This document shows, piece by piece, positions 1 through 64,000 of a stretch of 64,000 nt of DNA. The notes below the pieces were generated by a model. That model ran no database searches and was not told the DNA's origin. It worked only from the letters and a program-made list of their open reading frames with translations. Location of the stretch: positions 96,001-160,000 of the IMG/VR virus record IMGVR_UViG_3300045988_160394; one strand, 5' to 3'. The position numbers and the translations under genes were made by a program. The stretch is from a virus. Each line of letters starts with the position of its first letter. The stretch's first letter is position 1.

Positions 1-36
1 ACGTTATTCTTTAATGAAGAAAACAGCCAATTATAT

Positions 37-693
37 ATGAAACTTATAACAGAATCTATGACTTTTCAAACCAAAATGGATCTAGATAAAACTATTGAAG
101 AACTAGTTAAATGTGTAGAAGAGAATAAGACTTTAAGCAATTGTATTTATATAAATGAAATTATAAATAAATTATATAATGATGCTTTTAAATTCTTTTT
201 TGAAGATAACATAGTTCTTTTGTCTAATCACATAGTTAAAGATATAGCATACGTATATAATTTAAATAATAAAAATATAGGTTGTGCATCTAGATTTATA
301 ATTACTCCTACCTGTTGTTATCTTTTAGAATACGAAGGTAGAGGAAAAGATGTAGAAGATATGAAATATATAGAAGTGATAATAGGAAAAAAGAGAATCC
401 AATTTTTAAAATCTAAGATAGAAGAATCTTTCTTTTCAATTATTGGATACTATGAAGTTACTGGTATATTGGGGCAAATATGTGACTTAGATGAAGTAAA
501 AAAAGAACGCATAAATATAGAAGAAGTAACTCCTTTAAAGGTAAAACCAAATTTAATATCTTTAATTGATATGAAAGATTATGTTGTTAGCTCTAACAAT
601 GTCGAAACCTTATTGAGTTATAAAAAGACTATGAAACCTTCAGTATCTATGATTAATATTAATAAGTATATATTAAAAGATTTTATGATTTAA
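37..693 (+). CDS. hypothetical protein (218 aa)
   Basis: Uninterrupted ORF ending TAA. The RBS AAGGAGGA of the next gene follows directly. No motif recognised. Confidence 0.5.
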   Translation: MKLITESMTFQTKMDLDKTIEELVKCVEENKTLSNCIYINEIINKLYNDAFKFFFEDNIVLLSNHIVKDIAYVYNLNNKNIGCASRFIITPTCCYLLEYEGRGKDVEDMKYIEVIIGKKRIQFLKSKIEESFFSIIGYYEVTGILGQICDLDEVKKERINIEEVTPLKVKPNLISLIDMKDYVVSSNNVETLLSYKKTMKPSVSMININKYILKDFMI

Positions 694-707
694 AGGAGGA
701 TATTGAT

Positions 708-2303
708 ATGTTATTTAAAGATGAACTAGTGTCTTTGTTAAAAGCTAGACAACCTGGTATTTGGATTAATACTACAGAAGAAAAAGAAGCAGTTATAGCT
801 ATTAGAAATGCAGTTGCAGAAGTAGCAGAATATGATGATATATATCTTTGGTCTATGAATGAAGGTATATATCAATTAGTAGAGGGTGAAGAAAAATTAA
901 CATATGATCAAGTTTCTGCTAATCCTGGATTTGCTGAATTAAGTAAATACTTAAAAGAAAGTAATGATAAAGATTTAAATTTATCAAGAGTATGGGTATT
1001 AAGAGATTATCATTTAACTTTTAATAATCCAGTTTCAATAAGAGTTATTAGAGATTTAAAGGAATCTCCTTTAAGTAAATATACTCCAATAATAATAATT
1101 TCACCTGATATAGATATACCATTTGAATTATCTCATTTGTTTACTGTATTAAATTATGATACTCCATCTATTGAAGATATTGAAGAATTAGTAAAAGCTT
1201 GGTGTAATGCAAAAGACCAAGAAGAATTATCTGAAGAAGATATAAAAACAGTTGGGAAAAGATTATATGGTTTTCATAGATGTGAAATTATTAAAATGTT
1301 AAACTTATCTTTAGTTAAGTATGGTAAAATAAGTTTAGACATAATTAATGAGAAGAAAATAGAAAGTATTTCTGAATCAGGAGTTTTAGATTATAAAGTT
1401 CCTAAAGCTAATTTAGATAATGTAGGAGGAAATGAAAAATTCAAAGAATGGGTTGAAGTAATAGAATCTTGCATGACTGAAGAAGCCAGAGAATACGGGA
1501 TACCAGCTCCAAAAGGATATTTATCTGTTGGTATACCAGGATCAAGTAAAACTTACAGTGCAGAAGCATTAGCTGGCAAATGGAATGTTCCGTTTATAAA
1601 ATTAAATATGTCTAAGATAAATAGTAGATATAGTGGTGAAACAGAAAGAAATATGGCTAAAGCCTTAAATCTTGTTAAATCTTGTGCACCATGCGTATTT
1701 TTAATAGATGAAATAGAAAAAGCTTTAGGTGGTTATGCTTCATCTAATAATTCAGATTCTGGAGCAATAGCTAGAGCATTTGGTTTAGTATTAGAATTCT
1801 TAAACGATAACGATAATGGTGTATTTGTAGTTATGACTTCTAATGATGTAAGTCAATTACCACCAGAGTTAACTAGAGCAGGTAGATTAGATGCTACTTG
1901 GTATTTCTCATTACCTACTTTATCTGAAAGAAAAGAAATATTTAAGATACATTTAAATAGAATAGGTAAAGAAGTAGACGAAGAAACTATTAATAAAATA
2001 GCAGAAGAAACAGTTGCTTATACTGGAGCAGAAATAGAATCAATAGTAAAAGCTGCTTTAAGAAGAGCATTTATGTTAAAAGTTAAAAAAGGTATAGACA
2101 ATGGAATAGATTATGATATATTATTAGAATCTAAAAACGAAGTTGTACCTGTAGCTTTATCTTCTAGAGAAAAAATAATAGCTTTAGAGAATTGGTCATA
2201 CGGTAGAGCTTTAAGAGCTAGTGATTCATCAGAAGATGAAGAAATAATTGAAAATGAAAAGAAAAGTTCAACACCTGTTTTTAAATTTAAAAAGAAAAAA
2301 TAG
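708..2303 (+). CDS. AAA+ ATPase (FtsH/CDC48-like ATPase module)
   Basis: Walker A GIPGSSKT, Walker B VFLIDEIEK, sensor-1 MTSN, Arg-finger region LTRAGRLD. RBS AAGGAGGA upstream. All 8 Trp codons are TGG. Confidence 0.85.
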   Translation: MLFKDELVSLLKARQPGIWINTTEEKEAVIAIRNAVAEVAEYDDIYLWSMNEGIYQLVEGEEKLTYDQVSANPGFAELSKYLKESNDKDLNLSRVWVLRDYHLTFNNPVSIRVIRDLKESPLSKYTPIIIISPDIDIPFELSHLFTVLNYDTPSIEDIEELVKAWCNAKDQEELSEEDIKTVGKRLYGFHRCEIIKMLNLSLVKYGKISLDIINEKKIESISESGVLDYKVPKANLDNVGGNEKFKEWVEVIESCMTEEAREYGIPAPKGYLSVGIPGSSKTYSAEALAGKWNVPFIKLNMSKINSRYSGETERNMAKALNLVKSCAPCVFLIDEIEKALGGYASSNNSDSGAIARAFGLVLEFLNDNDNGVFVVMTSNDVSQLPPELTRAGRLDATWYFSLPTLSERKEIFKIHLNRIGKEVDEETINKIAEETVAYTGAEIESIVKAALRRAFMLKVKKGIDNGIDYDILLESKNEVVPVALSSREKIIALENWSYGRALRASDSSEDEEIIENEKKSSTPVFKFKKKK

Positions 2304-2346
2304 ATGTTGCTTATATAAATATTAATTTTAATAGGAGATGATAATT

Positions 2347-2742
2347 ATGTCAGTATGGACAAGAGTACAAACTAAAGTATTAAATGAAAATGTAGATATG
2401 GGTATCTTAGAAGAAGCCTTAAATGATTTAGAATTATCACTAGATAAAACAGTAACTAGAGTAGAAAATAGCTATGGTCATTCTAGTGTAACAGCAGGAT
2501 TAAAATATAAAGGAAGAAATATAGATATGGGTATCGTTGTTAATAGTAAAAAAGGTATTACTTTAGCAGGAGATACTTATAGATCAGGTATAGTTGGAGA
2601 TAATCAAGCTGATAAATTAATCAATATGATATCTCAAGCATATCAAAAAGTTAAATTAACAAGAGATTTAGAATTAGAAGGTTGGACTATTACATCTAAG
2701 AATGTTGATGGTAAAATAGTTCTAGACTGTATCCATCTTTAA
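2347..2742 (+). CDS. small conserved phage protein, DUF1257-like (family recalled, not verified)
   Basis: ORF track gives 2338..2742, but the ATG at 2347 has better spacing from TAGGAG. It sits between the AAA+ ATPase and a DUF2997-like ORF. Confidence 0.45.
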   Translation: MSVWTRVQTKVLNENVDMGILEEALNDLELSLDKTVTRVENSYGHSSVTAGLKYKGRNIDMGIVVNSKKGITLAGDTYRSGIVGDNQADKLINMISQAYQKVKLTRDLELEGWTITSKNVDGKIVLDCIHL

Positions 2743-2766
2743 TCTATAAATAGGGAGGTCTAGAAT

Positions 2767-3246
2767 ATGGCTAACATGTGTTATTTTAACTTAAAAGTTA
2801 TAGGAGATCTTAAAAATCTTCAAAAGTTTGAAGAAATATTAACAGCAGATTATGATTATGACAATCCAATAGCTTGTGAATCTGAGCATCTTTTTAGAAT
2901 ATATGACCCTAAAAAGATTAAATTGGGTAATGATTATGATATATATGCTGGGGAATGTGCTTGGTCTGCTTTTTCTTGTATGTTAGACAAATCTTCTAGA
3001 TCTAACTATGCTTGTTTAAAGAGGAATTATCCTGAAAAGTTTAAAGGAACTACAATAGACGAAGTGTCAAAAAAATTAAATCTAAAAATAGAAGTTTTTT
3101 CAGAAGAAACAGATTTCACTGAGCACATTATTGTTGATAATGGTGATATAGTTTTAAACGAAGAAAAAGATTTTGAAGAAAGATATATCGAAGAAACTGA
3201 TTCTTATATAAAAATTGGTGGACACGAATGGGAATTTACGATATAA
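2767..3246 (+). CDS. hypothetical protein (159 aa)
   Basis: Intact ORF with RBS GGGAGG upstream, ends TAA. Confidence 0.5.
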   Translation: MANMCYFNLKVIGDLKNLQKFEEILTADYDYDNPIACESEHLFRIYDPKKIKLGNDYDIYAGECAWSAFSCMLDKSSRSNYACLKRNYPEKFKGTTIDEVSKKLNLKIEVFSEETDFTEHIIVDNGDIVLNEEKDFEERYIEETDSYIKIGGHEWEFTI

Positions 3247-3262
3247 AAAGGAGGAATTAATC

Positions 3263-3463
3263 ATGAAGAGAGTAGAAATAACTATAAATTCAGATGGTAG
3301 TACAGAATTAGATTTTAAAGAAGGATTCTCAGGAATGAGTTGTGTAGAAAAATCTAAGCAAATAGAATTAATGATAGGTGGTGGTTCTGTTGAAAGACAA
3401 GAAAAGCCAGAATACTATGAATCTGAAAGTAGCATAGATTTAGGTGTAGATATATTTAGATAA
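3263..3463 (+). CDS. small protein, DUF2997-like (family recalled, not verified)
   Basis: ATG at 3263 is preceded by AAGGAGGA. The ORF-track start at 3215 lies inside the previous gene. Sequence: MKRVEITINSDGSTELDFKEGFSGMSCVEKS... Confidence 0.45.
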   Translation: MKRVEITINSDGSTELDFKEGFSGMSCVEKSKQIELMIGGGSVERQEKPEYYESESSIDLGVDIFR

Positions 3464-3516
3464 GAGGCACATTCTGATGTGCCCTTTTAGTTCAAAATTA
3501 GAAGGAGGATATTAAC

Positions 3517-5418
3517 ATGACAAAAACAGAAGTATTGGCAACAGCTAATGATGAGCAACAAGAGGCTATTAAACATCAAGAAGGTGCGTGTATTATAATT
3601 GCTGGTCCAGGTAGTGGAAAGACAAAGACAGTAATATCAAGAACTCAATATATGATATTAAATGGAGTAGATCCATCTCAAATATGTCTTTTTACTTTTA
3701 CAAATAAAGCAGCCAATGAAATGAAAGAAAGAATTAGATCTGCTGTAGGAGATCTAGCTGATAATATAACTTGTGGAACTTATCATTCAGTTGCACATAG
3801 ACTATTAAGAAAATACGCAACTCATATTGGATTTAATAAAAATTTTACTATATTAAGTCCTGATGATTGTAAAAAAATCTTAAAGAAAATTGGTAAACAA
3901 AGAGGTGTAGAAGAAGATATCTTATCTCTTTATATATCAGCTAAAAAGGATAAAGTTATTTCACCTGAAAGAGCTTTAACTGATGCAAAGAATGAAGCCG
4001 AAAAGGTTATGGCTAATGCTTATATAGATTATCAAAACGATCTAAAACGTCAAATGGCTATGGACTTTGATGACTTAATAATAAATACAATAAAATTATT
4101 ACAAAACTGCCCTGAAGTAAAGAAAACTATTAATAATAAATGGAGATATATTACTGCTGATGAAGCACATGACTCTTCTCCTAGAGATTTAATGTTAATA
4201 AGATTGCTTGGCGGTGATTCTGAAAATGTTTGTTTTATTCTAGATGATCATCAAAGTATATATGGTTTTAGAGGAGCAGATATAGAAGCAGTTATGAATG
4301 TAAGAAATGTCTATAAAGATATAAGTATCTTTAATTTATCAAGAAATTATAGATGTTCTCAAACAATAGTTGAAGCTAGTAAATCTTTAATAGCTAAAAA
4401 TACTGCTTTGATAGAAAAGAGAATTGTAGCTGCTAGAGATTATAAAGGTAGTCCTATTATAGTTTCTAGAGTTAAAAATCCTCAACAAGAAGCTGCTAGA
4501 GTAATACAATATGTACAAGCATTAAGAAAAAAGGGTTTAAAATATAAAGATATTGCTGTATTATATAGAATGTCATCTGCTTCTAGAGTATTAGAACAAG
4601 CTTTCAATACAGCTAAGATACAATGTAAAATCGTAGGAGGAACTCCTTTCTTTAATAGAGCAGAAATACAAGATATATTATCTTATTTAAGATTGCTTGT
4701 TAATGAATATGATTTTACAGCTTTTAAAAGAGCAATCACTGTTCCCAAAAGAGGGATCGGTGAAAAAACTATAGAAAAGATAGATGAATTTGCAAGAAAT
4801 TATCCAGGTGGAGCTATTTCAATCAGAAAAGCTATAGAGGAAATAGATCTTTCAGGTAAAGCTCAAAAAACAATTAAAGATTTTGTTGATTACCTAAATG
4901 AATTAGAGATAGCTATGGTTAATATGTCTCCAAAAGATTTAATCTTAAAGATATGTAAAGATATAGATATTACAAATTATCTTCAAACAAATCCTGATTA
5001 TAAAAAGAATTGGGAAGATAGAATAGGTAATGTAAAAGAGCTATTAAATGTAGCAGCAGAATATGCAGATATTCAAGAGCTTATAAGTCAAGCATCTTTG
5101 TATGCTGATACAGATGGCGAAGAAGAAGAAAAACAAGATGCAGTTAATTTATTAACTATGCATAGTTCTAAAGGGTTAGAATATAAAGCAGTTATTATAG
5201 TTAACTGTAATGAAGGAACTTCTCCTCATTATAAATCTTTAGGTATAAAGAAACAATTAGAAGAAGAAAGAAGACTTTTCTATGTTGCTATGACTAGAGC
5301 AAAAGATTACTTATTTATGACTTTCCCTGATTGTGTTTTAGTTCAAGGACAATTACAATATGCAAAGCCATCTAGATTTTTAAATGAAATAGATAAAAAA
5401 TATATCTATAGAAACTAA
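3517..5418 (+). CDS. UvrD/Rep/PcrA-family SF1 DNA helicase
   Basis: Walker A AGPGSGKT, plus TFTNKAANEM, YRCSQTIVEAS, TMHSSKGLEY and FYVAMTRAK. RBS GAAGGAGGA. Confidence 0.9.
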   Translation: MTKTEVLATANDEQQEAIKHQEGACIIIAGPGSGKTKTVISRTQYMILNGVDPSQICLFTFTNKAANEMKERIRSAVGDLADNITCGTYHSVAHRLLRKYATHIGFNKNFTILSPDDCKKILKKIGKQRGVEEDILSLYISAKKDKVISPERALTDAKNEAEKVMANAYIDYQNDLKRQMAMDFDDLIINTIKLLQNCPEVKKTINNKWRYITADEAHDSSPRDLMLIRLLGGDSENVCFILDDHQSIYGFRGADIEAVMNVRNVYKDISIFNLSRNYRCSQTIVEASKSLIAKNTALIEKRIVAARDYKGSPIIVSRVKNPQQEAARVIQYVQALRKKGLKYKDIAVLYRMSSASRVLEQAFNTAKIQCKIVGGTPFFNRAEIQDILSYLRLLVNEYDFTAFKRAITVPKRGIGEKTIEKIDEFARNYPGGAISIRKAIEEIDLSGKAQKTIKDFVDYLNELEIAMVNMSPKDLILKICKDIDITNYLQTNPDYKKNWEDRIGNVKELLNVAAEYADIQELISQASLYADTDGEEEEKQDAVNLLTMHSSKGLEYKAVIIVNCNEGTSPHYKSLGIKKQLEEERRLFYVAMTRAKDYLFMTFPDCVLVQGQLQYAKPSRFLNEIDKKYIYRN

Positions 5419-5439
5419 TAAATTGGAGGAGGCAAATAT

Positions 5440-5715
5440 ATGACTTTTGAAAAATATTGTAATGGAGTAATTGAAGATTTTATTGAAGATGTTGAGTTAA
5501 AACTATGTCTAGAACTAACTCAAGATCAGAAAGATGATATTTATACAGCTATGGAAGAACATAAAGAATGTTTTGAAGAAGAATATGAATCTTTCTGTAA
5601 AGAAGACGCTGAAATGATTATTTCTGTTATATATTCTGAATCAGTTGCTATAGAATGTATGAATTGTAATGAAACAATTATAGATACTGATGTTTTGTTT
5701 TTAGGTAATGAATAA
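5440..5715 (+). CDS. small acidic hypothetical protein (91 aa)
   Basis: Intact ORF with RBS GGAGGAGG. Its TAA overlaps the next ATG (TAATG). Confidence 0.5.
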   Translation: MTFEKYCNGVIEDFIEDVELKLCLELTQDQKDDIYTAMEEHKECFEEEYESFCKEDAEMIISVIYSESVAIECMNCNETIIDTDVLFLGNE

Positions 5716-7382
5716 TGATAGAAGTAAAAGATTATGGACATTATTATAATGTATCATTCAATGGAGATAAGGATAATTATCATAAATTTTTTAACTTTAT
5801 GGTATCTAAAGATGATATTGTAAAATTAAAAAAGAAAACTGGATGAAAGATGCCTAAATGTTATTTACCTGAATTAGAAGAAACATTTAATAATGTTGTT
5901 GAATTAATAGCTAATCCTTGGGATTATATAGGGGAAGGTTTAAAACTTTCTCCATATTGTTATCAAAAAGAAACAATTAAATTTGGAGTAGATAATAAAA
6001 AAGGTCTATTAATTTTGCCTTGTGGTTCTGGTAAAACACCTATTCTTGTAGGTATATATCATGAACTTAGAAAGAATAATTTAACTACTAAACCAGGAGC
6101 AATTATTGTTAAAGCATCTTTAAAGTATCAATGAGTGAAAGAAGTAGAAAAATTTTCAGATTATATAGCAAAAGCCATAGAAACTCCTTCTAAAGTTAAA
6201 AAGAAATTTGATGAGCAATTTGAAAACGCTGATTTATTTATATTAAATTATGAAACATTAAAGAATAAACAAGTAGCTGCTAAGTTAAGAGAGAAGAATG
6301 TAGAAGTAATGCTATTAGACGAAATACATTACATAAACAATCATACCTCTGCTAGAAGTAAAGCTGCTTATGAATTTAATGATTTGAAGTATTTAATAGG
6401 GGCTACTGCTACGCCAATTACTAATAACCCAGAAAATTTATTTGGAATATTTAATCTTATAGAAAAAGATCTATTCCAGTCCCACAGTAAATTTGCTAGG
6501 TCATATATAAAATATGCTGGTTATGGAAGAGTAGCTGGTTGCAAAAATGAAGATCATTTAAAGAAGAAGATAGCTCCATATATATTTATTAAAAGCGAAG
6601 CAGATGTTGCTGATCAATTGCCATCTCTTGTTGTTAATCAAAAATATTGTTATATTACTAGTCCTATTATGCAAGAAACTAATGCTAAATTGTTTGAGGA
6701 ATTAGATGTAGTCAATAATCAAATTAAACAATTAGAGAAAAGATATCCTAATCCAAAAGATTTAGAATCTAATGAAGAGTTTTTAACAGCTAAAGGTAAG
6801 GTAATGGCATATCAAACTTTTCTACAAGAATTAGTAGACGATCCTAGATTATTAAATGAATCAGAAAGTAATTTAGCTAAACAATATCATTGTCAAGAAG
6901 AATCTCCTAAGTTAAAAATGCTATTTGAACTAGTAGAAGAAATAACTGAAGCTGGTAGTAAAGTATGCATATTTACTAAGTATGTTCGTATGCAAAACAT
7001 ATTACAAAGGGAATTGGAAAGATATTTCGATTTTAAATGTGTTATAATTAATGGCAGTATGACTCCAGAAGAAAGATACGAAGCTGCTTATACTAAATTT
7101 GGAGACAATGATGATTATAAAGTATTGATAGGTACTGATGCTATGGCAGAAGGAATATCTTTATCTAAGTGTAATTATCTTATAGAATATGATTTAGCAG
7201 ATTCATATGCCATTCAGACACAAAGACATGGTAGAATAAAAAGAGCTAATTCAGTTCATAAAACTGGATACGTATATCAATTGATATGCGTAGATAGTTG
7301 GGATGAAGTACAGCAAAAGATAATAGCTAAAAAAGAGAATTATGATAATAATTTAATACAGAATATAGGAGAGTGAAAATAA
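5715..7382 (+). CDS. SNF2-family (SF2) helicase, decoded with TGA=Trp
   Basis: 5715-5849, 5850..6134 and 6135..7376 are one frame joined by TGA at 5844 and 6132. A third TGA at 7374 is followed by AAA TAA. Motifs: LPCGSGKT, SLKYQ[TGA]VKEVEKF (conserved QW..E of motif Ia), LLDEIH, TATPITNNP, QTQRHGRIKR. Confidence 0.8.
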
Positions 7383-7425
7383 TGTCACAAATAAAAGAGT
7401 GTTTGATTATTTCTTATAAAGTAAG

Positions 7426-7968: not shown

Positions 7969-7970
7969 AT

Positions 7971-7993
7971 AGCTCCTTATTATAGGAGCTTTT
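7971..7993 (+). terminator. putative intrinsic terminator
   Basis: agctcct-tattat-aggagct followed by ttt. Confidence 0.5.
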
Positions 7994-12781: not shown

Positions 12782-12794
12782 GGAGGAATTTACA

Positions 12795-54773: not shown

Positions 54774-56720
54774 TTATTCTTTTATAGTATTATAAGTATT
54801 ATCTGTTGAAACAGTTATATCAAATATTTTACCTGCTAATTCAGGAGAGTTATTTAAGTCTACTGTAGTAGTACCTTTATTCTCCCAATATACTTGTACT
54901 TCTATTTCATCAAATTCTTCTAATTTATAACCAGATAACTCTTCTACTTTTAATTCTCCTTCAAAGATTAATCTATCAGAAGATAAAGATTCTTTACCAG
55001 CTTCTTTTCCTTCTATAATAGCTTTTAAAGGAAGTTCTGTTATAACAGCTTCTTTTACTTTTATAGGGTTATTGACATCCATTTTATCAAAATGTTTTTT
55101 TAAACCCTTTGCTATAACTTTATAGCCTATTCTATATACAGGAGCTTCAGCAGGTGCATAGGTATCAGCTTTTAAATTAAAAGATGTATTATCAGTTCTA
55201 GAATCTCCTACTGTAGCTATTTGATTACCTATAGCTATTAAATCTCCAGTATTGAATAAAGATGCACTATAAGACTTATTATCTTCGTTATAAGTATTTA
55301 GAGGTCTAGCATTATTAGGAACTAAAGTGTTAGGGTTATTTATAACCTTAAACTTACCTTCTCTATTAACTTTCAATTCTGCTCTTACTCTTGTAGATTT
55401 GCTCAAACTTGATAATTTAGTAGAGCAAGAATATAAACCTTGTTTTGAATATTCAAGATTATTTAAAAGCACTTCTGAAGTTACTACTACTAGATACAAA
55501 TCTCCATCTTCTGTTCTTAATCCAGCTCCGTTATCGAATGAGAATAATTTACTATTTGTTTGTAAATCAATACTATCTTTACCTCTTAGCCCTTTAAGTT
55601 CCCAATAGTTATTTGTATCAGCGTCTATTTGTACAAATAAGAACATATAGTTAGGTTTATCTAACACAATAGTATTTGAGAAGTTGAAAAATAATTCGTT
55701 AAATGCTTGGTTAGCTTGAGCAGGATATAATAAATCTGACTCACCAATTATTTTCCCATCTTCTTTTAATTGTTCTATTGTAGCTAATGTGAAGATATCA
55801 GTACCTGTATTTGTTGGATCTACCACATAACATTTTAATGCTCCTGGGAAACCTGTTCTTCTTGCTTGTACACCTATTCTTCTAATAGCTCCTCTTGCTG
55901 TAGAAGGTATATTGATTTGTGCACAATATCCTGAATTAGGAGTATATTTCTTTGTTAGTAATATAGGTTGAGCATCGTCATTTAATATTATATATTTTTC
56001 TTGAGAAGAAACAGATACGTCTTTTTTCTTACCGAATACAAAGGAACCGTCGCTATAACTTCCATATGACTTGAATATTTGTGTACCTGAAGGAATTGGA
56101 CCTGTTATTGTTGAAGTTAAGTTTATTCTATTAGCACTAACAACATCTTGTACTTTTGTTATTTGAGGTTCATTAGTACCAATAACGATATATTCTCCAG
56201 TCATAAAATCTGAAGAATCTTCAACTGTTATAAAACTAGTTTGATTAGTACTCATATCTGAATTAGTAACAGTTATAACTTCATGAATATATTTTTCATT
56301 GCCTTCTTTAAAAGCATCAATATATCCATTGTAACATTCAGTATTTTTTATCATACCTGATTTGGCTAATTCAGCTTTCATTTGATATAGTTCATCTCTT
56401 AGGTTTTTAATTTCGTTACCTGAGTTTATTGATACAGCATAAGTATCACTTAGTATTCCAGAAGCCCCTTCTGTTGTTAAGTATTTAGAAGCTTCTATTC
56501 CTCCCAATCTTAAAGCATTATTAACAGTATCTCTATCAGAGATTAATTCACCTGATTCTGGATCAGTTGCTGCTTTAGCTATAAGATCTGATTTTATTCC
56601 AGCTACATTTATAGTATCGTTAGAAGCATCGGTTAATTTTCTAAAACCATATACTTTTTCTAAATACTGACCTATTTGGTCTAATGGTAACATAGCTGGA
56701 CTCATTATAGTTCTTGACAT
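54774..56720 (-). CDS. tail-fibre-like structural protein (648 aa)
   Basis: Intact ORF. NALRLGGIEASKYLT resembles the L.G..AS.Y motif common in phage fibre N-termini. Confidence 0.5.
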   Translation of the reverse strand: MSRTIMSPAMLPLDQIGQYLEKVYGFRKLTDASNDTINVAGIKSDLIAKAATDPESGELISDRDTVNNALRLGGIEASKYLTTEGASGILSDTYAVSINSGNEIKNLRDELYQMKAELAKSGMIKNTECYNGYIDAFKEGNEKYIHEVITVTNSDMSTNQTSFITVEDSSDFMTGEYIVIGTNEPQITKVQDVVSANRINLTSTITGPIPSGTQIFKSYGSYSDGSFVFGKKKDVSVSSQEKYIILNDDAQPILLTKKYTPNSGYCAQINIPSTARGAIRRIGVQARRTGFPGALKCYVVDPTNTGTDIFTLATIEQLKEDGKIIGESDLLYPAQANQAFNELFFNFSNTIVLDKPNYMFLFVQIDADTNNYWELKGLRGKDSIDLQTNSKLFSFDNGAGLRTEDGDLYLVVVTSEVLLNNLEYSKQGLYSCSTKLSSLSKSTRVRAELKVNREGKFKVINNPNTLVPNNARPLNTYNEDNKSYSASLFNTGDLIAIGNQIATVGDSRTDNTSFNLKADTYAPAEAPVYRIGYKVIAKGLKKHFDKMDVNNPIKVKEAVITELPLKAIIEGKEAGKESLSSDRLIFEGELKVEELSGYKLEEFDEIEVQVYWENKGTTTVDLNNSPELAGKIFDITVSTDNTYNTIKE

Positions 56721-56726
56721 GTATTA

Positions 56727-59558
56727 TTACCTCCACTCAAAAGTTATTTCACTAATAACAGGGTTAGCTACATATGGCTTACCATGTTCTAGTATATATT
56801 TTTCATGTTCTAATGGGTTTAATTCAAAGTATCTAGCTATTGGATCTATATTTAAAACATTATCCAACTCTTTATCTAATAAAGTTATAGATTTATTTTC
56901 TCTATTTATAATATATTCCCCAGTATATATTACTCCATCTATATATATTTTTATTAAATCTTGTGTAGAAAATAAGCTTCTAGGGATTGAATCGTCTTCC
57001 ATATAGAAAATTCTTTGTCCAGGATATCTAACATTAATTGCTTGTGATTTTATATTAAAGTCTTGTCTTACTTCAACTAATATATAATCATCTCTTTCAC
57101 AATCAATTTCTACTTTTCCTTTTTTATTGTATATAACATATTTGCTCCAAGTTTCTCTATTCTCAGGATCATAGTTGTTTTGATTACCAACTATTTGTTT
57201 ATGGATAACTATTGTATTTTCATTAACTATAGTAAAATCCTTTCTATTTAATCTTACTCCATTAACATATACAGTTACTACACCTGGAGTCATTGAAATG
57301 TTAGTAGTATATCCTCCACTAAAATCCATTGTTCTATTAGCAGCTGTTAATACTTCTTTTTGACAAGATACCGTTTCAGTTTTTTCAGGACGTTCTACAT
57401 AATACATTAACTCTCCATCTTCATATGGATCTAATCCCTCAACAGATTCCATAGTAGGAATGATAAACTTACCTGTATTAGAACTCTCTTCTGAAACATC
57501 ATAGTTCAATAAATTATTAGTAAATACAGTTAATGCTCCTTCATTGTTACTAAACATATGCTCTACATTTACAGAATAAACAGTCTTATCTTTTATTAAA
57601 GATTGTTTACCTTTTAATAAAGGTTCTTCTACTCCATTAGAATATGTGTATGCATAAAATGTACCTTTCTTGCCTTTTAAATCTTTACTATCTAACATAA
57701 TAGAACCAGCTGAATAGTTACCTTTTATCATACTAGTAATAGCATTTATAGATTCAAAGTCTCTTATTTCTATCCATTTTTTTGTACTATCATTTCATTC
57801 ATAGTATTTATATACTTCTGAACTAGACATAGTATTTTTAACTTTAACTATTTGACCTGAAGCACCTTTTATAGGTAAAGCTTCTCTAAGGATAGAATCT
57901 TCCATAGGAATCATTTTACCATCAGCGAATATAAGAGCGTTATTACATTCATTGTACATAGTACCGTCTTCATTATTAATAGCTACGGTAAAATTCATAA
58001 CTTTAGTATCGAATGATAAAGCAGTATTGCTATCGTCTTTTATTTTTAATAATACGTATTGTTGCCCTTCTTTAGCATTAGATATTCTTATTTCTCCTTC
58101 AGAAACATCTAATTCTCTTGATGACATTAATAATCCATCTATAAATAATAAATATTCATCTTTTGGATTGTTAGTAATCTCACTATTTCTAATAGCTATT
58201 TTAGAATCTATTTTACCATGACAAACATACATATTATCTGCTTCAACTATCATTACTTTTACTGGAGCTTCTATAGTGTCTAATCCTCAGTTTTTAATTA
58301 ATAAGCTATCACCTTGGAAAGTAATTTCTTCTGGAGATACTATATTAGTACCCATAACCCCAGAAACAAAAGCTAATGGCTTTTTAAAATTAACTGCATT
58401 AGTAAAAGTACCTACTAAAGTATCAGTTCCTGAACTAGTAATATTATTAATTTCTTTTTCTCCAGTTGATTCTTGATCTTGGAATACTACAGCCATCATA
58501 TCCATTGGATTTATTATTGTGTCGTTTATTTGTATTTTTCCACTAGCTGAATCATAATTATATTTAGTTTGTTCTAAATATAAACCATCTAAGAAAATCA
58601 TTGGTCTTTTGGTTAATTGACCTATTTGTACTTCAGATTGGCTTCCAATAGTAAAATCATTTCTAATAAGCTTTCCTGGTTTTTGTGTATCTTGAAAAAC
58701 ATAAGATACAGAATAAATATAGTTAGCTGCTTTAGCTTTTTCACTTATGATTTCTATACCTTTATCAAACGTTTTGTAATCGTAAGTTAAAGTTTTACCT
58801 GTATAAGGTATCATAGCTATACCATTGTTACTAACTGGATCTAGATAATAAAATTCTGTATTATGATCGAATAATCCATATATCTTATAATCATCTTCAG
58901 CTTTATTTATTTTTAATAGCTTCTTTTCTATTTTGAATGTTTTATTAGCATTAACATGTATCCATGATTCTTTTTCATCTATAGAAGTTGTATCATATTT
59001 AACACTAACATCTGATAAAGTATGATATTTTTCATCAGTTGGATGAATAAAGATTCCATTATCAAATAGCTTACCATATTCAGAATAAGGAACTAGGAAT
59101 GTCTTTCTTCCTTCTACATCATCCATATCTTTTATTGGCACAATGTTTATAAAGTTATTATGCATATCTACTAATACATTTTCAGCAGTAGTATTTACAG
59201 ATTTTACAGCAATCCAACTATTAGTATTCTGATCATATCTTTTTAAAATATCATCTTCATCTAACCATAGTTGACCATTAACAGGGTTTAAAGGTTTATC
59301 TTTCATGTTGACAGGATGATAAAAATCATTAAAAGCTGGCACTCATTTATTGTCAGTATTTTTAACTTTTAGAACATTAAGTCCTCTGCTATTATCATTC
59401 CAAATAGCACCAACAGGAATATCTGTTTGTTTATCTTTTATTGGCTGAGTAGGTCCATTATTGATATATCTTAATGCCATAAGTAAATCATAAAGTTCTT
59501 GATTTAATGTCAAATCACTTTGACGACCTATAGAAAATTTTCTAGCCACTATCTTCAC
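56727..59558 (-). CDS. large baseplate/tail structural protein (943 aa), fusion of four ORF-track fragments via three TGAs
   Basis: 59343..59558, 58287..59342, 57795..58253 and 56727..57731 are all in one frame. The bridges were checked. TGA at 59343, 58287 and 57795. The true stop is TAA at 56727. Confidence 0.6.
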
Positions 59559-59594
59559 TCCTTTTTAATAAGAACGGCTATTAAAAACCGTTCT

Positions 59595-61517
59595 TTAAAT
59601 AATATTAATATCTGCTATTATAGCATCTCAATATTTTTCTTCATTTTTAGTATTAGGTGTTAACATCTTTGAATTCAGCTTTCTATTAAAAGCATCATTA
59701 TTTAGTATACTATTTATACCATTATTAATGATTCTTAAAGAGTCAACTAATTCATTATATATATCACAAGTTATAAAAGTTTCTCTAGGAACTATTCTAG
59801 TAAAGTTAAAGAATCTATTATAAGCTTTTGCTTTATCATTTATATAATCTTGTAGTTCTTTTATCAAATAGCCTTCTGTTATTTCTAATGCCCTTATCTT
59901 ATCTAAAGCTTCTCTTCTTTTAAAATTATATGTTTCTGAAATAGGAGATTCTCCATAAACATTTCTCATATAAGCTTTAATAGCTATAGTCTCTTTACTT
60001 GTAAGATTGTTATCATCTGGAGCTACAAACATAACTTTATCTCCACTTATAGAAAAACATTCTGAATATTTTTTATTGTCATAATCTATTCCATTTAAAT
60101 TAACGATAAAAGTGCTTGCTCCATCATATCCAGAAAATATAAATCTAGGAGATATGCTATAAATTCCAGTGTTAGGCACTGATGGAGAAACTAATTTAGG
60201 AGTACCTTTCGGTTTAGAACCTTTTTTAAAATCTATCTTATAAGACCAATCGCTATATAATAATCCATCAGTAGATCTTACTCATACTTCATAATCACAT
60301 CCATCAGGATCTGAACCTATATCAAAGTTATATGATGTATCTTTTATTCTACTTTCAATAATCTTATCTCTTATTTTATAGCCATCAGCATCTATAGTTT
60401 TTATTCATACTTCATAAGAAACGCTATCTTCATCTGGATCACTAGAAGCATCTCAAGTAAATGTTAAATCATTATAAATAATATTTCTTTTACCTGAAAC
60501 AGATAAGTTTTGAGGGGTAGTCGGTCTACCATTATATCTATGTCCACCAACTAAACCTGTTCCTGTAGACTCTTTTCCATAAGCATTTTTAGCTCATGCT
60601 TGATAATATACATCATGGCCTTCATGCTCTCTGCCGAAATAAGCATCGAAATCTATATCATAATCTCATGATTGACCAGCATAAAAAGTTCCACTTGTAT
60701 CGTATGTTCTTATTTCTTTTTGGATTCCATTACAATATGCTCTTAATCATATTTCACCAGAAGCGTTATTATTATCTACATACTTTAATGTTAACTTTCC
60801 ACTACTTCCTTTAGCAGGATGAATATTTAATTCAGGATTAACAGCATCTTTTACTATGCCAGATGTTACAACACTATCATAATAATATTTTCTAAAATAA
60901 AAAGCACAACTCTTTCTACTTATTTGTTTATATCCAGAGTCAGAAATTCATCCATTAGAGCTGTTTGCACTACCATTAAGTTGTTCGAATCTACCATTAT
61001 CATGAGCCCAGTTATTAGTATCTTGACCATGTTTATAAGCCCAATCTGACCATGCACATGTATGATAGTCTCAGTCTTTAGGAACTATTGCATATATACC
61101 ATAAAGGTTGTTTTTAGGTTTTGCTGGAGTGCTATCTGTAAAATTACCATAAGAATATCTACTTAAATTGTTACCATAGTTACCATAATAGAAAAAAGGA
61201 ATAGAACCATCTGTACATTGGAAGTGATACCCCATTGTTTTCAATGAGTACAATCCTTCAGCTTGAACTGTTACATCATTCTCATCTATGTCTATAGAAA
61301 TTGTTTCAGTAGTATCGTAACTTACCCATGGTTTGTTTCCTACTTTTATTCTTGCCTCAACTAGTTCTATACCTTCTCATATTCCTTTCCTAGCAGTAGT
61401 CCCTCCACCAACATGTGTTGCTGTATAATTTGATCTAGAACAAGTTATGCTTTTAGGACTTAAATCAAAAGTAACACGACATTTATTATTAACAATACTC
61501 GTACTATGATTTATCAC
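59595..61517 (-). CDS. FN3-domain-containing virion protein (640 aa), ten in-frame TGAs
   Basis: The frame was checked triplet by triplet from GTG 61517 to TAA 59595. TGA at 61377, 61071, 60948, 60747, 60666, 60594, 60453, 60405, 60282 and 59628. FN3-like region: PTTPQNLSVSG..LTFT[W]DASSDPDEDSVSYEV[W]IK...DYEV[W]VRSTDGLLYSDWS. Confidence 0.65.
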
Positions 61518-64000
61518 TATTTTTCACCGCCTTATTTTTTAATAAAGTTATTTCATCTTTTAATTTAATTATTTCTTTATGAGCTTCTTTTAATCCTTGC
61601 CATAATACAGCTGTTACAGCAACAGGATCTATTGTTTTTAAATCATGTAGATCATTACCGTTTTTATCTTTAGGGAATATTATATCTCCACTTTCTATTT
61701 CTTTATCAGTAAATTTCATAGTATTAACTGTTAAAGGGAATTGTGCTTCTAAGTCTTGAGCAAAGAAACCAAATATAGGAGTTTGTGAAGTATCTTGTGC
61801 ATAGCAGTATATCTTTGGTTTAATAGTATCTATTTTTTCTAATATTGTTCTTTCATCTGGATCGTCACTTAATTTAGAAAATTGAGTTAATTCAATTTTA
61901 GTTCTTTCGTCAGATTGTTGACGATATACTTTAGCATAAATATCTACATATTGTCCTTCTATATTTGCAAAATGTCATCCATAGTTACCTGAACGTCCTT
62001 CACAATATAAATCGGGCTGAGAACTACATCATGATACTAATTTTGCATCTAATTTTACATCTCCTGTAGCATGCATAGCACCTGTTTGGAATGTATTTAC
62101 GTTTTCTAATATTAATTGCTTACCATCTTGTTTGTAATACATTCTTCCATTTTCTCCACCACCATATCAGTCATGGATTCTAAGATATTTTCATGCAATT
62201 AAATCTCCTCATGCTTCTATATTATTTTGTGCAATAAAGTGTCCAGAAGCTTTTAATTTAGTATCTTCAAATACATCTAATCTATAATGGAAGTCTTTTG
62301 CCGAATCCTCATTATAATGGAAGTCTATAAATCTACCTATTTCCATTACACCATCATTACCTATTATAGGAATAGTGTTTCTATTTTTTCCATTAGAAGC
62401 TCCTACTCAGTTACCATTTATATTTTTAGTATAAGTTGAATTAAATGGTCATTCTGAAGTTCCTAAAGAACTAGCCCCTCCACCAGAGAATGGTATTAAC
62501 CCTAGTTTAGTAGTTCTAATTCATTCATTGTTAGAATTATTTCTACCTCTCATACCATAGTAATCACCTTCATCTGTTCCATAATAACAACCCATTGCAC
62601 CTATATCTCCTATAGATATGTTATTTATTTTAGAACAAGACACTTGTCTTCCTCCTGGAGGATTCTGCTGTAACTTTTGATTACTAAACATTGTTACATC
62701 ACCAGAACTCATTATTAAGCTAAAAGATATAAAAGTGTAACTTTGATCACATTTTACTCATAACTCATAATCTGTTAATTTATTAGTTTTTGTTATTTCT
62801 ATTAATTTAAAGTTGTTTTCGTTTATAGTTAAATAATCAGATAAAAATAAACTACAAGCTGTTTCTTGCCCCATAGCTGCTTGTTGTTTTACTCTAGCAG
62901 TTATTTCTCCTTTGATTGGAGTAGTTCTACCAGAACCATGATCAAGCACTTTTATAATAGCTTGAGCATCATCATATTGATAATGTATTTTAAAACTAGC
63001 TACTCTACTTCACCATCCAACTTTATCTCCGTTTGTTCCTTCTGTTTCGTATCCTCTATTTGAAAAGCTATTAGCACGAGCAGTTCCATTAACTAATAAA
63101 GGATATTTTTCTTCAGCTTTTGCTCCACCTACTCCTAATCCATACTTATTAATAAATGCTACAGAGTTTACAGCTGGAATACTTGTAGAATAAGAATGTG
63201 TTCCTGATAATCCTAAACCATCTAAAAAGCTTACATGGAAACCATGTGCATACTCACCAAATAAAGATATGTTTAATGTTTGTATATCTTGTGTGTTTTT
63301 TAATTCTCCTCTAATCTCTTGACCTTTTTCGCCAACACAATTCCATTGTCCTTGAATCTCAACTCCAGGTATAGATGTATTAGCTTTTACTGATAACTGT
63401 ATTTTTGCATCAGCTGATGTTCTTGTCATAGAGTTTATTGATAATGTTGGAGGATTATAATAATGTATATCTACTGCTCCTGAATCTAAAAAGTTATCTG
63501 TACCATAATCAGAAACTACATGAACTCCAAAAGCTAATGTGTGTTTACTATTTTGTTTTGGTAATGTTACAGAATAATTTTTTGTTGAGCTATTAACTTC
63601 AGTTATATAAGAAGCATGTCCATCAATTATTTGATGTAATGTATATTTAAATCCTCCTCCTAATGGATCTCCTCCACCTTCCCATGAGAAAGTAATAGTA
63701 TCACTACCATTAGGAACATAATATTTTTGCCCATTGTGACAAGTTTTTAAAGCTGTTCCTCCTGATATCCATACTCTGCTTGGAGGATTTGGAGTTGCTC
63801 TAATATCTACTCATACTGTTCTACTACTAAATTTAGAACTTCCATTATTATTTTTAGTAGCTAATCCAATATGGAGATTACCTTTATAAGAATTTCCTGA
63901 AAAAGCTTTCTTCAAATCATCAAATTTTATATAAGGACCAGAAGGTGTACTTCCTCCTTTTCATATTGTTATAGTATCTGAAGTTCCAGTAACGTCTCTT
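61504..64000 (-). CDS. large tail-fibre protein, 5' end outside the window, at least 12 in-frame TGAs, C-terminal intramolecular-chaperone-like tail
   Basis: ORF-track fragments 63010.., 62758.., 62521.. and 61504.. are all in one frame. Every line from 61681 to 64000 was checked and is free of in-frame TAA/TAG. The C-terminus DPVAVTAVLWQGLKEAHKEIIKLKDEITLLKNK resembles the end of S74-type chaperone domains. Confidence 0.65.

What the first reader, a model, noticed from the sequence alone, without database searches (positions are those of the whole stretch)
1..64000. TGA-Trp and TGG-Trp codons are segregated by gene class
These genes use only TGG: AAA+ ATPase (8 W), NrdD (8 W), DnaE copy 1 (5 W), DnaE copy 2 (14 W), the SF2 helicase (about 11 W), and also UvrD, the DnaG primase, RecJ and the DnaB-like helicase. 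The sigma factor is 7/7 TGA. The 16 kb of virion genes at 47974-64000 contain about 30 TGAs mixed with TGG. The partition is not absolute: SNF2 has 3 TGAs, the AEP primase 1, and three small ORFs 1 each. That pattern fits a genome whose early genes remain translatable under the host code.
Basis: seen in the sequence. Interest (0 to 1): 0.75.

Follow-up and report, generated by a model that had tools for sequence, protein, structure and literature searches.

The report
Opal-recoded jumbo phage; sigma factor locked
This is part of a 263-kb phage genome that reads TGA as tryptophan only in its tail-fibre, cell-wall-lysis and sigma-factor genes and keeps its replication genes free of TGA, a known phage timing strategy whose new detail is that the sigma factor is the most completely recoded gene.

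Summary
In 57 credible genes there are 51 in-frame TGA and 151 TGG codons. Replication and nucleotide-metabolism genes have 4 TGA/78 TGG. The tail-fibre block at 47974-64000 has 30/21. Three cell-wall hydrolase or collagen-like genes have 5/28. The sigma factor has 7/0. TGA means Trp: it aligns with TGG-Trp in standard-code relatives and never with Gly. No gene ends in TGA.

Synonymous A/G sites are nearly saturated against the standard-code sister clade (69% of G-ending codons are now A). Yet only 4 of 54 ancestral TGG codons outside the late block changed, so TGA is selected against there.

The new part concerns the sigma factor. In eight fetched loci of recoded relatives it is 43 TGA/1 TGG, while its operon neighbours are almost all TGG. 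It has gained extra TGA-Trp codons. It is the last gene of an operon behind a perfect host-type TTGACA-17-TATAAT promoter.

I infer that opal suppression gates the sigma factor. No suppressor tRNA lies in these 64 kb. Timing and the host's code are untested.

The parts
40586..41485 (-). Sigma-70-family sigma factor gene. All 7 Trp codons are TGA, at codons 21, 63, 76, 171, 188, 217 and 246 (41425-41423, 41299-41297, 41260-41258, 40975-40973, 40924-40922, 40837-40835, 40750-40748).
   Evidence: Pfam Sigma70_r4 is weak. TIGR02937 gives E=9e-9 over sigma regions 2-4, below its cut-off. The AlphaFold model has pLDDT 78, and all top 50 PDB fold matches are sigma factors with weak E-values. TGA aligns to W in 115/120, 118/120, 89/120 and 64/120 homologs, and to TGG in standard-code relatives.
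43526..43554 (-). Perfect TTGACA-17-TATAAT promoter with a palindromic spacer, ATACGTA-N3-TACGTAT. It heads the operon 42791-43504 / small ORF / DUF1064 / Bax1-I / sigma.
   Evidence: No terminator-like site lies between it and sigma. It is conserved 1.4-2.1 kb upstream of sigma in recoded and standard-code relatives.
40515..40543 (-). Second perfect promoter of the same type. It heads the unit 40276-40476 / RecJ / Amidase_3 endolysin.
   Evidence: The next terminator-like hairpin is at 36982-36955, after the endolysin.
35884..35912 (-). Third promoter of the same type (11 of 12 consensus bases), in front of DnaE copy 2.
37184..38485 (-). Amidase_3 + SH3_3 endolysin, 1 TGA (codon 83) and 5 TGG. 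It is the last gene behind the RecJ promoter.
   Evidence: Pfam, counts. Orthologous or analogous endolysins downstream of RecJ in recoded relatives carry 2-3 TGA.
26093..30247 (+). 1384-aa Amidase_2 / SH3 / NlpC-P60 cell-wall hydrolase, 2 TGA (codons 77 and 213) and 21 TGG.
   Evidence: Pfam, counts.
35970..36695 (-). Collagen-like protein with an internal repeat. Copy 1 has TGA at the two Trp positions where copy 2 has TGG.
   Evidence: Sequence: HIEXRYKGTDLXNQLIALTELKG versus HIEWQYAGTDSWQQLIALTELKG. Pfam Collagen.
47974..64000 (-). Tail-fibre/baseplate-type block of ten genes, 30 TGA and 21 TGG. The richest genes are 61504-63999 (12/5, Peptidase_S74 end) and 59595-61517 (10/5).
   Evidence: Counts. 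PHROG tail-fibre hits for 53327-54718. S74 domain. The syntenic block in sister clade locus L053 has 0 TGA/69 TGG, and nine window TGAs align to its TGG-Trp.
5715..7382 (+). SNF2 helicase, the main exception among replication-type genes. TGA at codons 44 and 140 aligns to TGG-Trp in the sister clade. TGA at codon 554 sits at the ancestral stop position.
   Evidence: The source assembly called this gene as three pieces under the standard code.
46178..47188 (-). AEP/PriCT_1 primase, single TGA at codon 285 of 336.
   Evidence: Pfam. The TGA aligns to TGG-Trp in 12 of 12 relatives.
708..25657 (+). Plus-strand replication and nucleotide-metabolism cluster: AAA+, UvrD, Gam, DnaG, SIR2, NrdD, NrdG, dUTPase, DnaE1, methyltransferase and SF2 helicase. 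It is TGG-only apart from SNF2 and three unannotated ORFs, and all stops are TAA or TAG.
   Evidence: Pfam, counts. The 9.3 kb upstream on the source contig adds 0 TGA/30 TGG.
32514..35849 (-). DnaE copy 2, 0 TGA/14 TGG. All 14 Trp are conserved as TGG with the sister clade.
38550..40313 (-). RecJ, 0 TGA/5 TGG. It lies directly between sigma (7/0) and the endolysin.
32370..32444 (+). The only tRNA-like gene in the window. It has an aberrant anticodon arm and no UCA anticodon. It is listed because it is the one candidate decoding RNA present, but it is not shown to be the suppressor.
   Evidence: Rfam tRNA 45.2 bits. Default ARAGORN finds nothing. Relaxed ARAGORN gives conflicting UUA and GCA readings.

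Best explanation
The window is 64 kb of a 263-kb jumbo phage genome (ENA ERZ1756024 NODE_19). The phage belongs to a clade of mostly standard-code phages of 130-277 kb from gut-type samples. Its lineage has reassigned TGA from stop to Trp, but only in some genes.

Genes needed first (replication, recombination, nucleotide metabolism) contain no TGA as a sense codon or as a stop. Host ribosomes therefore read them correctly before and after any code change.

The tail-fibre genes, three cell-wall hydrolase or collagen-like genes and, most completely, the phage sigma factor contain in-frame TGA. They can only be made once UGA is decoded as Trp. The likely agent is a phage opal-suppressor tRNA encoded elsewhere in the genome.

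The sigma factor and the endolysin are each the last gene of an operon that starts at a consensus host-type promoter and otherwise holds TGG-only genes. For those two genes the TGA codons, not transcription, would set the delay.

Shown: TGA means Trp; the gene-specific distribution; selection against TGA in the TGG-only genes; the standard-code sister clade; the promoter and operon layout. Inferred: a standard-code host; the existence of a suppressor tRNA; early versus late timing; that this sigma factor drives late transcription.
For: TGA means Trp.
- Sigma TGAs align to W in up to 118 of 120 homologs and never to G.
- At the DNA level, window TGAs align to TGG in standard-code relatives in sigma, AEP primase, SNF2 and the tail-fibre genes.
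- The collagen-like protein has an internal TGA/TGG repeat pair.

Counts and tests.
- Replication genes 4/78, tail block 29/20 before the start correction, sigma 7/0 (TGA/TGG).
- Fisher p=5e-12, and heterogeneity exceeded all 20,000 shuffles.
- All 61 ORFs called, the four doubtful ones included, end in TAA or TAG.

Selection.
- A-ending share at two-fold purine codons is 0.88 in all genes.
- Conserved K/E/Q codons that are G-ending in the sister clade are A-ending here in 128 of 186 cases.
- Only 4 of 54 ancestral TGG outside the late block became TGA (p=3e-21).

Relatives.
- The sister clade has 0 TGA in the sigma region, the SNF2 region and the syntenic tail-fibre block, and 0 of 49 TGA stops.
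- Recoded relatives L002, L028, L030, L036/37 and L038 repeat the pattern.

Sigma.
- 43 TGA/1 TGG over eight loci, against 9/136 in DUF1064, 197-aa, 237-aa, RecJ and DnaE2 (Fisher p=2e-32).

Promoters.
- Only three intergenic near-perfect TTGACA-17-TATAAT sites occur in 64 kb, all before TGG-only genes. Sigma and the endolysin are at the operon ends.

The published model matches (Borges et al., bioRxiv 10.1101/2021.08.26.457843).
Against: - No opal-suppressor tRNA, RF1 or TrpRS lies in the window or the 9.3 kb upstream. The one tRNA-like gene lacks a UCA anticodon.
- Timing classes are inferred from function and promoter consensus, not measured.
- SNF2, a replication-type gene, needs read-through of two N-terminal TGAs.
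- Three genes of the tail block have no TGA.
- Even in late genes, conserved Trp codons are only 27% TGA, below the 69% neutral turnover. TGA therefore still carries a cost, which also fits a pure tolerance model.
- The sigma share of 43/44 is only marginally above the neutral 0.88 (p=0.025), and the lineages are not independent.
- No late-promoter motif could be defined.
Confidence: 0.75

Rival explanations
1. Tolerance rather than timing. The phage suppresses UGA throughout infection but imperfectly. TGA therefore persists only in genes that tolerate some truncated product or need low output. The class pattern would reflect the cost of inefficient suppression, not a temporal switch.
For: Conserved Trp codons in late genes are only 4/15 TGA, against 69% neutral turnover, so TGA is costly even there. 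T after TGA is depleted (4/50 versus 35/149, p=0.02), which suggests selection on read-through context. No suppressor or timing evidence is available.
Against: Sigma, a conserved regulator, is 43/44 TGA over eight loci and gained extra TGA-Trp codons. Seven serial inefficient read-throughs would abolish the protein, so suppression must be efficient when sigma is made. Replication genes avoid TGA as a stop as well, which a cost-of-sense-TGA model does not require. Sigma and the endolysin share operons with TGG-only genes behind consensus promoters.
Confidence: 0.15
2. The host itself reads TGA as Trp (code 4, as in Mycoplasmatales). The TGG-only genes would simply be recent acquisitions from standard-code sources, or would not yet have drifted.
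For: The genome is AT-rich (28% GC). One distant relative sits in a MAG labelled Bacilli, a class that in GTDB includes code-4 orders (my knowledge).
Against: Synonymous A/G sites are close to saturation against the sister clade (0.228 differing against 0.274 expected). Yet 50 of 54 ancestral TGG outside the late block are kept, and new Trp codons in those genes are TGG. Only 18 of 57 genes carry TGA, against about 90% of genes in phages adapted to recoded hosts (Borges et al.). Relatives in the same clade are standard-code. The phage carries three peptidoglycan hydrolases, which implies a walled host.
Confidence: 0.05
3. The in-frame TGAs are not sense codons. They would be assembly errors, pseudogenes, selenocysteine or glycine (code 25) sites.
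For: None beyond the fact that the source assembly's standard-code gene calls split SNF2 and truncate some homologs.
Against: The same TGA positions recur in independent assemblies from different samples. Reading frames stay open and conserved across them. TGA aligns to Trp or aromatic residues and never to Gly. With 51 sites in 18 genes, selenocysteine is excluded as a general explanation.
Confidence: 0.02

Closest known systems
TGA-recoded (code 4) gut phages of Borges et al. (Agate, Jade and Sapphire clades), bioRxiv 10.1101/2021.08.26.457843
   Same: TGA is read as Trp. Recoding sits in structural and lysis genes and not in the replication machinery. Close standard-code relatives exist. 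TGA is nearly absent as a stop in those relatives. GC content is low. A Firmicutes-type host is predicted. Genomes are large (Jade 210 +/- 35 kb). Only a minority of genes is recoded (26-71% there, 32% here). Source.
   Different: Clade membership could not be tested because no terminase lies in the window. That paper does not mention a sigma factor at all (0 occurrences). Its most TGA-biased families are a homing endonuclease, a tail protein and a lysis-cassette membrane protein. Here the top family is a sigma factor at the end of an early-type operon. The code-change module (suppressor tRNA, TrpRS, RF1) seen in Jade phages was not found in this window.
TAG-recoded crAss-like and Lak phages (code 15)
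   Same: The logic is the same: late structural and lysis genes carry the reassigned stop codon and early genes do not. LC-MS/MS metaproteomics supports code 15 in crAss-like phages (abstract of PMC9523058).
   Different: A different codon and amino acid (TAG to Gln), a Bacteroidota host and an unrelated phage lineage.
Phages adapted to recoded hosts (code 25 phages of Absconditabacteria/Gracilibacteria; mycoplasma-type code 4)
   Same: In-frame TGA is read as an amino acid.
   Different: There TGA occurs in about 90% of genes with no class bias. Here it occurs in 18 of 57 genes, is excluded from replication genes, and is never aligned to Gly.
Phage sigma-factor cascades (Bacillus phage SPO1 gp28 and gp33/34; my knowledge, not tested here)
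   Same: A phage-encoded sigma-70-family protein, made from a host-RNAP-dependent transcript, redirects RNA polymerase to later gene classes.
   Different: In those systems the delay is transcriptional. Here the sigma ORF would additionally be untranslatable until UGA is suppressed. Sequence similarity to characterised phage sigmas was not established. The nearest GenBank phage hits are unstudied Bacillus and Moorella jumbo-phage genes at 25-27% identity.
TGA-free 'code-neutral' phages predicted to infect both standard-code and code-25 hosts (Liu et al., mBio 2023, PMC10746230)
   Same: Avoiding TGA altogether makes genes readable under either code (abstract). The early genes here and the whole sister clade show that state.
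   Different: There the proposed benefit is host range. Here the neutral state is confined to one gene class within a genome that elsewhere uses TGA as a sense codon.

Membership tests
Stop-codon-recoded phage (TGA to Trp) with late-gene-biased recoding, infecting a standard-code host (Borges et al.) | In-frame TGA in conserved ORFs, aligned with Trp in homologs | tested here: met
   and the internal repeat.
Stop-codon-recoded phage (TGA to Trp) with late-gene-biased recoding, infecting a standard-code host (Borges et al.) | TGA abandoned as a stop codon | tested here: met
   All called genes end in TAA or TAG. The one TGA at an ancestral stop position (SNF2) is followed by Lys-TAA. The sister clade has 0 of 49 TGA stops.
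Stop-codon-recoded phage (TGA to Trp) with late-gene-biased recoding, infecting a standard-code host (Borges et al.) | Recoded codon enriched in structural and lysis genes and depleted from replication genes | tested here: met
   4/78 versus 29/20, Fisher p=5e-12. The pattern repeats in recoded relatives. Exceptions are SNF2 and the AEP primase.
Stop-codon-recoded phage (TGA to Trp) with late-gene-biased recoding, infecting a standard-code host (Borges et al.) | Close relatives that use the standard code | tested here: met
   The sister clade (IMG/VR 3300045988 contigs, L003-6, L039-41, L053-55; Logan L031-33) has 0 in-frame TGA in about 60 kb sampled.
Stop-codon-recoded phage (TGA to Trp) with late-gene-biased recoding, infecting a standard-code host (Borges et al.) | Phage-encoded opal-suppressor tRNA (anticodon UCA) or other code-change genes (RF1, TrpRS) | tested here: inconclusive
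   None was found in the window, in the 9.3 kb upstream or in any fetched relative locus. Only 73 of 263 kb of this genome could be read. The tRNA-like gene at 32370 has no UCA anticodon. Borges et al. detected suppressors in only 35% of code-4 phages.
Stop-codon-recoded phage (TGA to Trp) with late-gene-biased recoding, infecting a standard-code host (Borges et al.) | Host uses the standard code | not testable with these tools
   Inferred from selection against TGA in early genes, the peptidoglycan hydrolases, consensus sigma-A-type promoters, and relatives binned with Clostridia and Bacilli MAGs.
Stop-codon-recoded phage (TGA to Trp) with late-gene-biased recoding, infecting a standard-code host (Borges et al.) | Temporal switch of decoding during infection | not testable with these tools
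   Needs time-resolved transcriptomics or proteomics of an infected culture.
Sigma-70 family (gene 40586-41485) | Sigma region 2 and region 4 domains recognisable by sequence | tested here: inconclusive
   TIGR02937 gives E=9e-9 and 35.1 bits over profile positions 17-161 of 165, below the 42.9-bit cut-off. Pfam r4 scores 21.0 bits against a cut-off of 24.1. A PDB profile search finds only FliA/ECF sigma region 4, at E=0.018 and weaker.
Sigma-70 family (gene 40586-41485) | Two-domain all-helical sigma fold | tested here: met
   The model has pLDDT 78.4, with two helical domains joined by a disordered linker at residues 173-208. All top 50 PDB fold matches are sigma factors. The best E-value is 3.4e-3 and TM-scores are low, as expected for two mobile domains.
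Code 25 (TGA to Gly) phage | TGA aligns with Gly in homologs | tested here: not met
   No Gly appears at any sigma TGA column in 120 homologs. Trp or aromatic residues align elsewhere.
Phage fully adapted to a code-4 host | TGA used as the main Trp codon in nearly all genes | tested here: not met
   18 of 57 genes carry TGA. The overall TGA share is 25%, against 88% expected from A/G bias.

The most novel reading that the evidence does not exclude
The genetic-code switch sits upstream of the transcriptional switch. In this phage clade the sigma factor is the primary and earliest target of opal recoding. It is transcribed with early genes from a host-type promoter, but it cannot be translated until a suppressor reads its 5-7 TGA codons. 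Opal suppression would then license late transcription, and the TGAs in the fibre and lysis genes would form a second lock.

Five findings support this.
1. Sigma is 43 TGA/1 TGG across eight loci, next to TGG-only operon mates.
2. The Trp count rose from 2-4 in standard-code relatives to 5-7, all as TGA.
3. Some gain positions recur in lineages that are not sisters on the sigma tree (63; 171).
4. In the lightly recoded lineage L034/L035 in the sister clade, sigma is 2 of 3 TGA while a neighbouring fibre gene is 0/19.
5. The endolysin sits behind RecJ in an early-type operon only in the recoded clade.

No paper in the searchable library links a phage sigma factor to stop-codon recoding.
Probability: 0.4. 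Interest if true: 0.7.

Novelty: new member of a known kind. Interest (0 to 1): 0.45.

Why it matters
The class-specific use of a reassigned stop codon is already the leading model for how recoded gut phages time their lytic programme. This window adds a clean, well-controlled example. It has a fully standard-code sister clade at 60-78% protein identity, a lightly recoded lineage (L034/L035), and direct evidence of selection against TGA in early genes.

The sigma result gives the model a concrete and testable regulatory node. If a sigma factor is locked by UGA, then one suppressor tRNA controls both translation and transcription of the late programme. It also means standard-code annotation pipelines will systematically truncate this regulator, as happened for homologs in public data (215-aa calls).

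Tried and rejected
- **Near-identical DNA in GenBank phages:** none. Exact-match searches for the sigma gene and for the 3' half of the tRNA-like gene in IMG/VR also found nothing.
- **Suppressor tRNA:** ARAGORN on the window and on all 55 loci fetched up to then found only one unrelated tRNA-Leu. Rfam at gathering and E-value thresholds found a single aberrant tRNA-like gene. Relaxed ARAGORN gave contradictory anticodons, UUA with a 5-nt 'intron' or GCA, so I do not call it a suppressor. The rest of the 263-kb contig could not be reached with the look-up rules.
- **Late-promoter motif:** upstream regions of TGA-bearing genes, compared with the sister clade, gave only AT-rich TATAAT-like strings directly after hairpins. 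Nothing was robust.
- **PHROGs and Pfam on the block 47974-53259 and on the genes at 54774-59549 and 59595-61517:** no families, so their 'virion' label rests on position only.
- **Two small ORFs (47840-48028, 61180-61380) with many TGAs:** rejected as out-of-frame artefacts. They have atypical A3 values and overlap real genes. The second overlaps the true 5' extension of the gene at 59595.
- **Structure prediction with the window's own sigma (TGA written as W):** The 97%-identical homolog P0001 was used instead.
- **Sample accessions:** not found in the paper library.
- **Code 25, pseudogene and artefact readings:** rejected.

Full report
**What the window is.** The sequence is 28% GC. Genes lie on the plus strand up to about 32.5 kb and on the minus strand after that, and the GC skew flips there. 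An exact-protein look-up places it on a 263,172-bp metagenomic contig, ENA ERZ1756024 NODE_19. The 9.3 kb upstream of the window encode RecA, thymidine kinase, an RNA ligase/PNK-type protein, UDG, dTMP kinase and Rad52. GenBank phages hold no near relative. The sigma gene finds only distant Bacillus and Moorella jumbo-phage genes there. Metagenomes hold many relatives on contigs of 130-277 kb.

**Checking the counts.** I called genes with TAA and TAG as the only stops and counted Trp codons.
AAA+ is 0/8, NrdD 0/8, DnaE1 0/5, DnaE2 0/14, SF2 helicase 0/10, UvrD 0/2, DnaG 0/6, RecJ 0/5, DnaB-like 0/4, sigma 7/0, SNF2 3/2 and AEP primase 1/0 (TGA/TGG). Pfam confirms these identities.
- The block 47974-64000 has 30 TGA and 21 TGG. 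This count follows correction of one start codon: the gene at 59595 begins at GTG 61517, giving 640 aa, which matches the 641-aa sister ortholog.
- Five unannotated ORFs, not three, carry one TGA each.
- Two small TGA-rich ORFs are out-of-frame artefacts.
- In all, 18 of 57 credible genes contain TGA.

**What TGA encodes.**
- In 120 sigma homologs, the seven TGA columns hold W in 115, 118, 89 and 64 sequences at the four conserved positions. The other three positions hold mainly K, F/Y or C. None holds Gly.
- Some database proteins may themselves have been translated with code 4, so I repeated the test on DNA. In standard-code relatives, the codons opposite the window's TGAs are TGG in sigma (positions 21, 76, 217, 246), AEP primase (12 of 12), SNF2 (44, 140), the ORF at 44404 and nine tail-block sites.
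- The collagen-like protein carries an internal duplicate in which one copy has TGA, TGA and the other TGG, TGG at the same two Trp positions.

TGA is therefore Trp. It is not Gly, selenocysteine or a stop.

**Is the segregation more than chance?**
- By class, replication and nucleotide-metabolism genes are 4/78, the tail block 29/20 (before the start correction), lysis, cell-wall and collagen-like genes 5/28, sigma 7/0 and unannotated genes 5/24.
- Replication versus tail block gives Fisher p=5e-12. Gene-level heterogeneity exceeded all 20,000 label shuffles.
- The proper null is neutral code-4 usage. A-ending codons make up 0.88 of two-fold purine-ending codons in every gene, so a neutral TGA share would be near 0.88.
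- A direct clock is available. At conserved Lys, Glu and Gln codons, 128 of 186 that are G-ending in the sister clade are A-ending here. Overall third-base difference is 0.228, against 0.274 at saturation.
- Against that 69% turnover, ancestral TGG became TGA in 4 of 54 cases outside the late block (p=3e-21), in 4 of 15 cases in the late block (p=9e-4) and in 3 of 3 cases in sigma.
- Trp codons that are new relative to the sister clade are TGG in RecJ, DUF1064, NrdD and the 237-aa gene, but TGA in sigma and the fibre genes.
- No gene ends in TGA.

The TGG-only genes are thus kept free of TGA in every role. That is what genes read under two codes would need.

**Relatives.**
- Nineteen IMG/VR relatives further out and a sister clade show no in-frame TGA in sigma. 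The sister clade has none in its flanks either. The scattered TGAs counted in the flanks of more distant relatives are probably stop codons read through by my TAA/TAG-only ORF calls.
- The sister clade comprises IMG/VR 3300045988 contigs and Logan L031-33. Its sigma is 60-62% identical to the window's and its SNF2 78% identical.
- The sister clade's syntenic tail-fibre block is 0 TGA/69 TGG. It uses TAA or TAG for 49 of 49 stops.
- A monophyletic group on the sigma tree (window, L002, L028, L030, L036/37, L038) is recoded.
- Within the sister clade, L034/L035 is lightly recoded. Sigma has 2 TGA and 1 TGG, one fibre paralog 3/6, another 0/19 and a nucleoside transporter 1/0. The standard-code gene call for its sigma is a truncated 215-aa protein, seen on 24-30 contigs.

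**The sigma factor.**
- Over eight loci the sigma family is 43 TGA/1 TGG. The families around it are DUF1064 0/21, the 197-aa protein 0/11, RecJ 1/33, DnaE2 2/53 and the 237-aa protein 6/18. Fisher p=2e-32, with the caveat that the lineages share ancestry.
- Recoded sigmas have 5-7 Trp against 2-4 in standard-code homologs.
- The extra Trp are all TGA. They lie at position 188 (Cys in the sister clade; Val, Tyr, Thr or Cys further out), which is shared by the six recoded lineages, and at 63, 76, 137, 171 and 179 in subsets. Positions 63 and 171 recur in lineages that are not sisters on the sigma tree.
- The sigma-family assignment is reasonable but not at curated thresholds. The predicted fold matches only sigma factors.

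**Operon context.**
- The window contains only three intergenic near-perfect TTGACA-17-TATAAT sites. All three are on the minus strand, and all share a palindromic spacer, ATACGTA-N3-TACGTAT.
- They precede the operon 42791 / DUF1064 / Bax1-I / sigma, the unit 40276 / RecJ / endolysin, and DnaE2.
- The motif is conserved at the same places in recoded and standard-code relatives.
- No terminator-like site separates sigma or the endolysin from the TGG-only genes upstream of them.
- If these are host sigma-A-type early promoters (inference), sigma and endolysin mRNA are made together with replication mRNAs, and only the TGA codons delay the proteins. The first TGA is at codon 21 in sigma and codon 83 in the endolysin.

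**Comparison with what is known.** Borges et al. already reported several of these features:
- TGA-recoded phages with standard-code relatives above 90% ANI;
- loss of TGA stops as a precursor state;
- 26-71% of genes recoded in phages of standard-code hosts;
- the proposal that a mid-infection code switch times late and lytic proteins.

Whether this lineage is their Jade clade (210 +/- 35 kb, Firmicutes, TGA) cannot be tested without a terminase. Neither that paper, nor a 2026 jumbo-phage survey, nor three full-text searches link a sigma factor to recoding.

**What remains open.**
- No opal suppressor, RF1 or TrpRS lies in the 73 kb I could read.
- The only tRNA-like gene (32370-32444) has an aberrant anticodon arm and no UCA anticodon.
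- Host identity is only hinted at. The hints are peptidoglycan hydrolases, relatives binned with Clostridia and Bacilli MAGs, and a sub-threshold match to a Clostridioides helicase-embedded RNA model.
- Timing is inferred.
- SNF2 is a genuine exception to the class rule.
- The lower-than-neutral TGA share in late genes leaves room for a cost-only model.

**Verdict.** The finding is a new member of a known kind. The sigma-factor lock is a credible and testable new detail.

Noticed in passing
window 32370-32444 (+): tRNA-like gene (Rfam tRNA 45.2 bits) with good acceptor, D and T arms and an encoded CCA, but three extra bases in the anticodon arm. Default ARAGORN misses it. Relaxed runs read it either as tRNA-Stop(UUA) with a 5-nt insert or as tRNA-Cys(GCA). 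It is absent from the relatives' loci scanned with Rfam, and no exact match to its 3' half exists in IMG/VR.
   Followed up: partly
window 30250-32500, especially 31183-31266 (+): A 2.2-kb ORF-poor stretch between the convergent gene blocks contains a full-length skipping-rope RNA (RF02924, 57.6 bits against a 36.7 cut-off). This is a structured RNA of unknown function. The rest of the stretch may hold further structured RNA.
   Followed up: partly
window 43531-43547, 40520-40536, 35887-35903, 47900-47916: The palindrome ATACGTA-N3-TACGTAT is embedded as the spacer of consensus -35/-10 promoters, which makes it operator-like. It occurs four times on the minus-strand half only. It is conserved at syntenic sites in recoded and standard-code relatives. 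The binding factor is unknown.
   Followed up: partly
window 7374-7382: SNF2 ends GE-TGA-AAA-TAA, and the sister clade ends GE-TAA at the same place. This TGA therefore acts as a stop under the standard code and as Trp-Lys-stop under code 4.
   Followed up: yes
L036 14815-18172; L037 5593-10424: In one recoded relative lineage, DnaE copy 2 is interrupted. L037 carries a LAGLIDADG endonuclease ORF there whose two Trp codons are both TGA, while the first DnaE2 piece is 0/9 and the last piece is 2 TGA/5 TGG. This echoes the recoded homing endonuclease reported by Borges et al.
   Followed up: partly
L034 7600-8496; L035 7314-8210: A lightly recoded lineage in the otherwise standard-code sister clade. 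Sigma has TGA at W217 and W246 but TGG at W21. Public standard-code gene calls truncate it to 215 aa, and that call is seen on 24-30 contigs.
   Followed up: yes
window 37184-38485; L036 13052-14155; L038 6299-7564: An endolysin sits directly downstream of RecJ only in the recoded clade (Amidase_3 or CHAP type, each with 1-3 TGA). In the sister-clade loci L031 and L034 that position holds small ORFs.
   Followed up: partly
whole window, in-frame TGA codons: T is depleted directly after TGA (4 of 50) compared with after TGG (35 of 149), Fisher p=0.02. This may reflect selection on read-through context.
   Followed up: partly
window 5236-5333 (+), inside UvrD: Sub-threshold match (61.8 bits against a 65.2 cut-off) to RF03531, a Clostridioides difficile sRNA model embedded in a helicase gene. 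It probably reflects coding-sequence similarity and may hint at the host lineage.
   Followed up: no
window 18143-21217 (+) and 32514-35849 (-): Two DnaE (Pol III alpha) genes lie in one phage genome and are only about 28% identical to each other's relatives. Both are TGG-only.
   Followed up: no
L001 2386-4578: Upstream of the window, the contig encodes a 730-aa protein with AAA_33, Metallophos and T4-type RNA ligase domains (PNK/RNA-ligase-like). Proteins of this type repair tRNA (my knowledge), so the phage may depend on tRNA integrity.
   Followed up: no
window 56727-59549 and 59595-61517 (-): Both fibre-block genes start at GTG upstream of the first ATG, as shown by alignment with the sister clade. 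ATG-only calling truncates them by 23 and 94 codons.
   Followed up: yes
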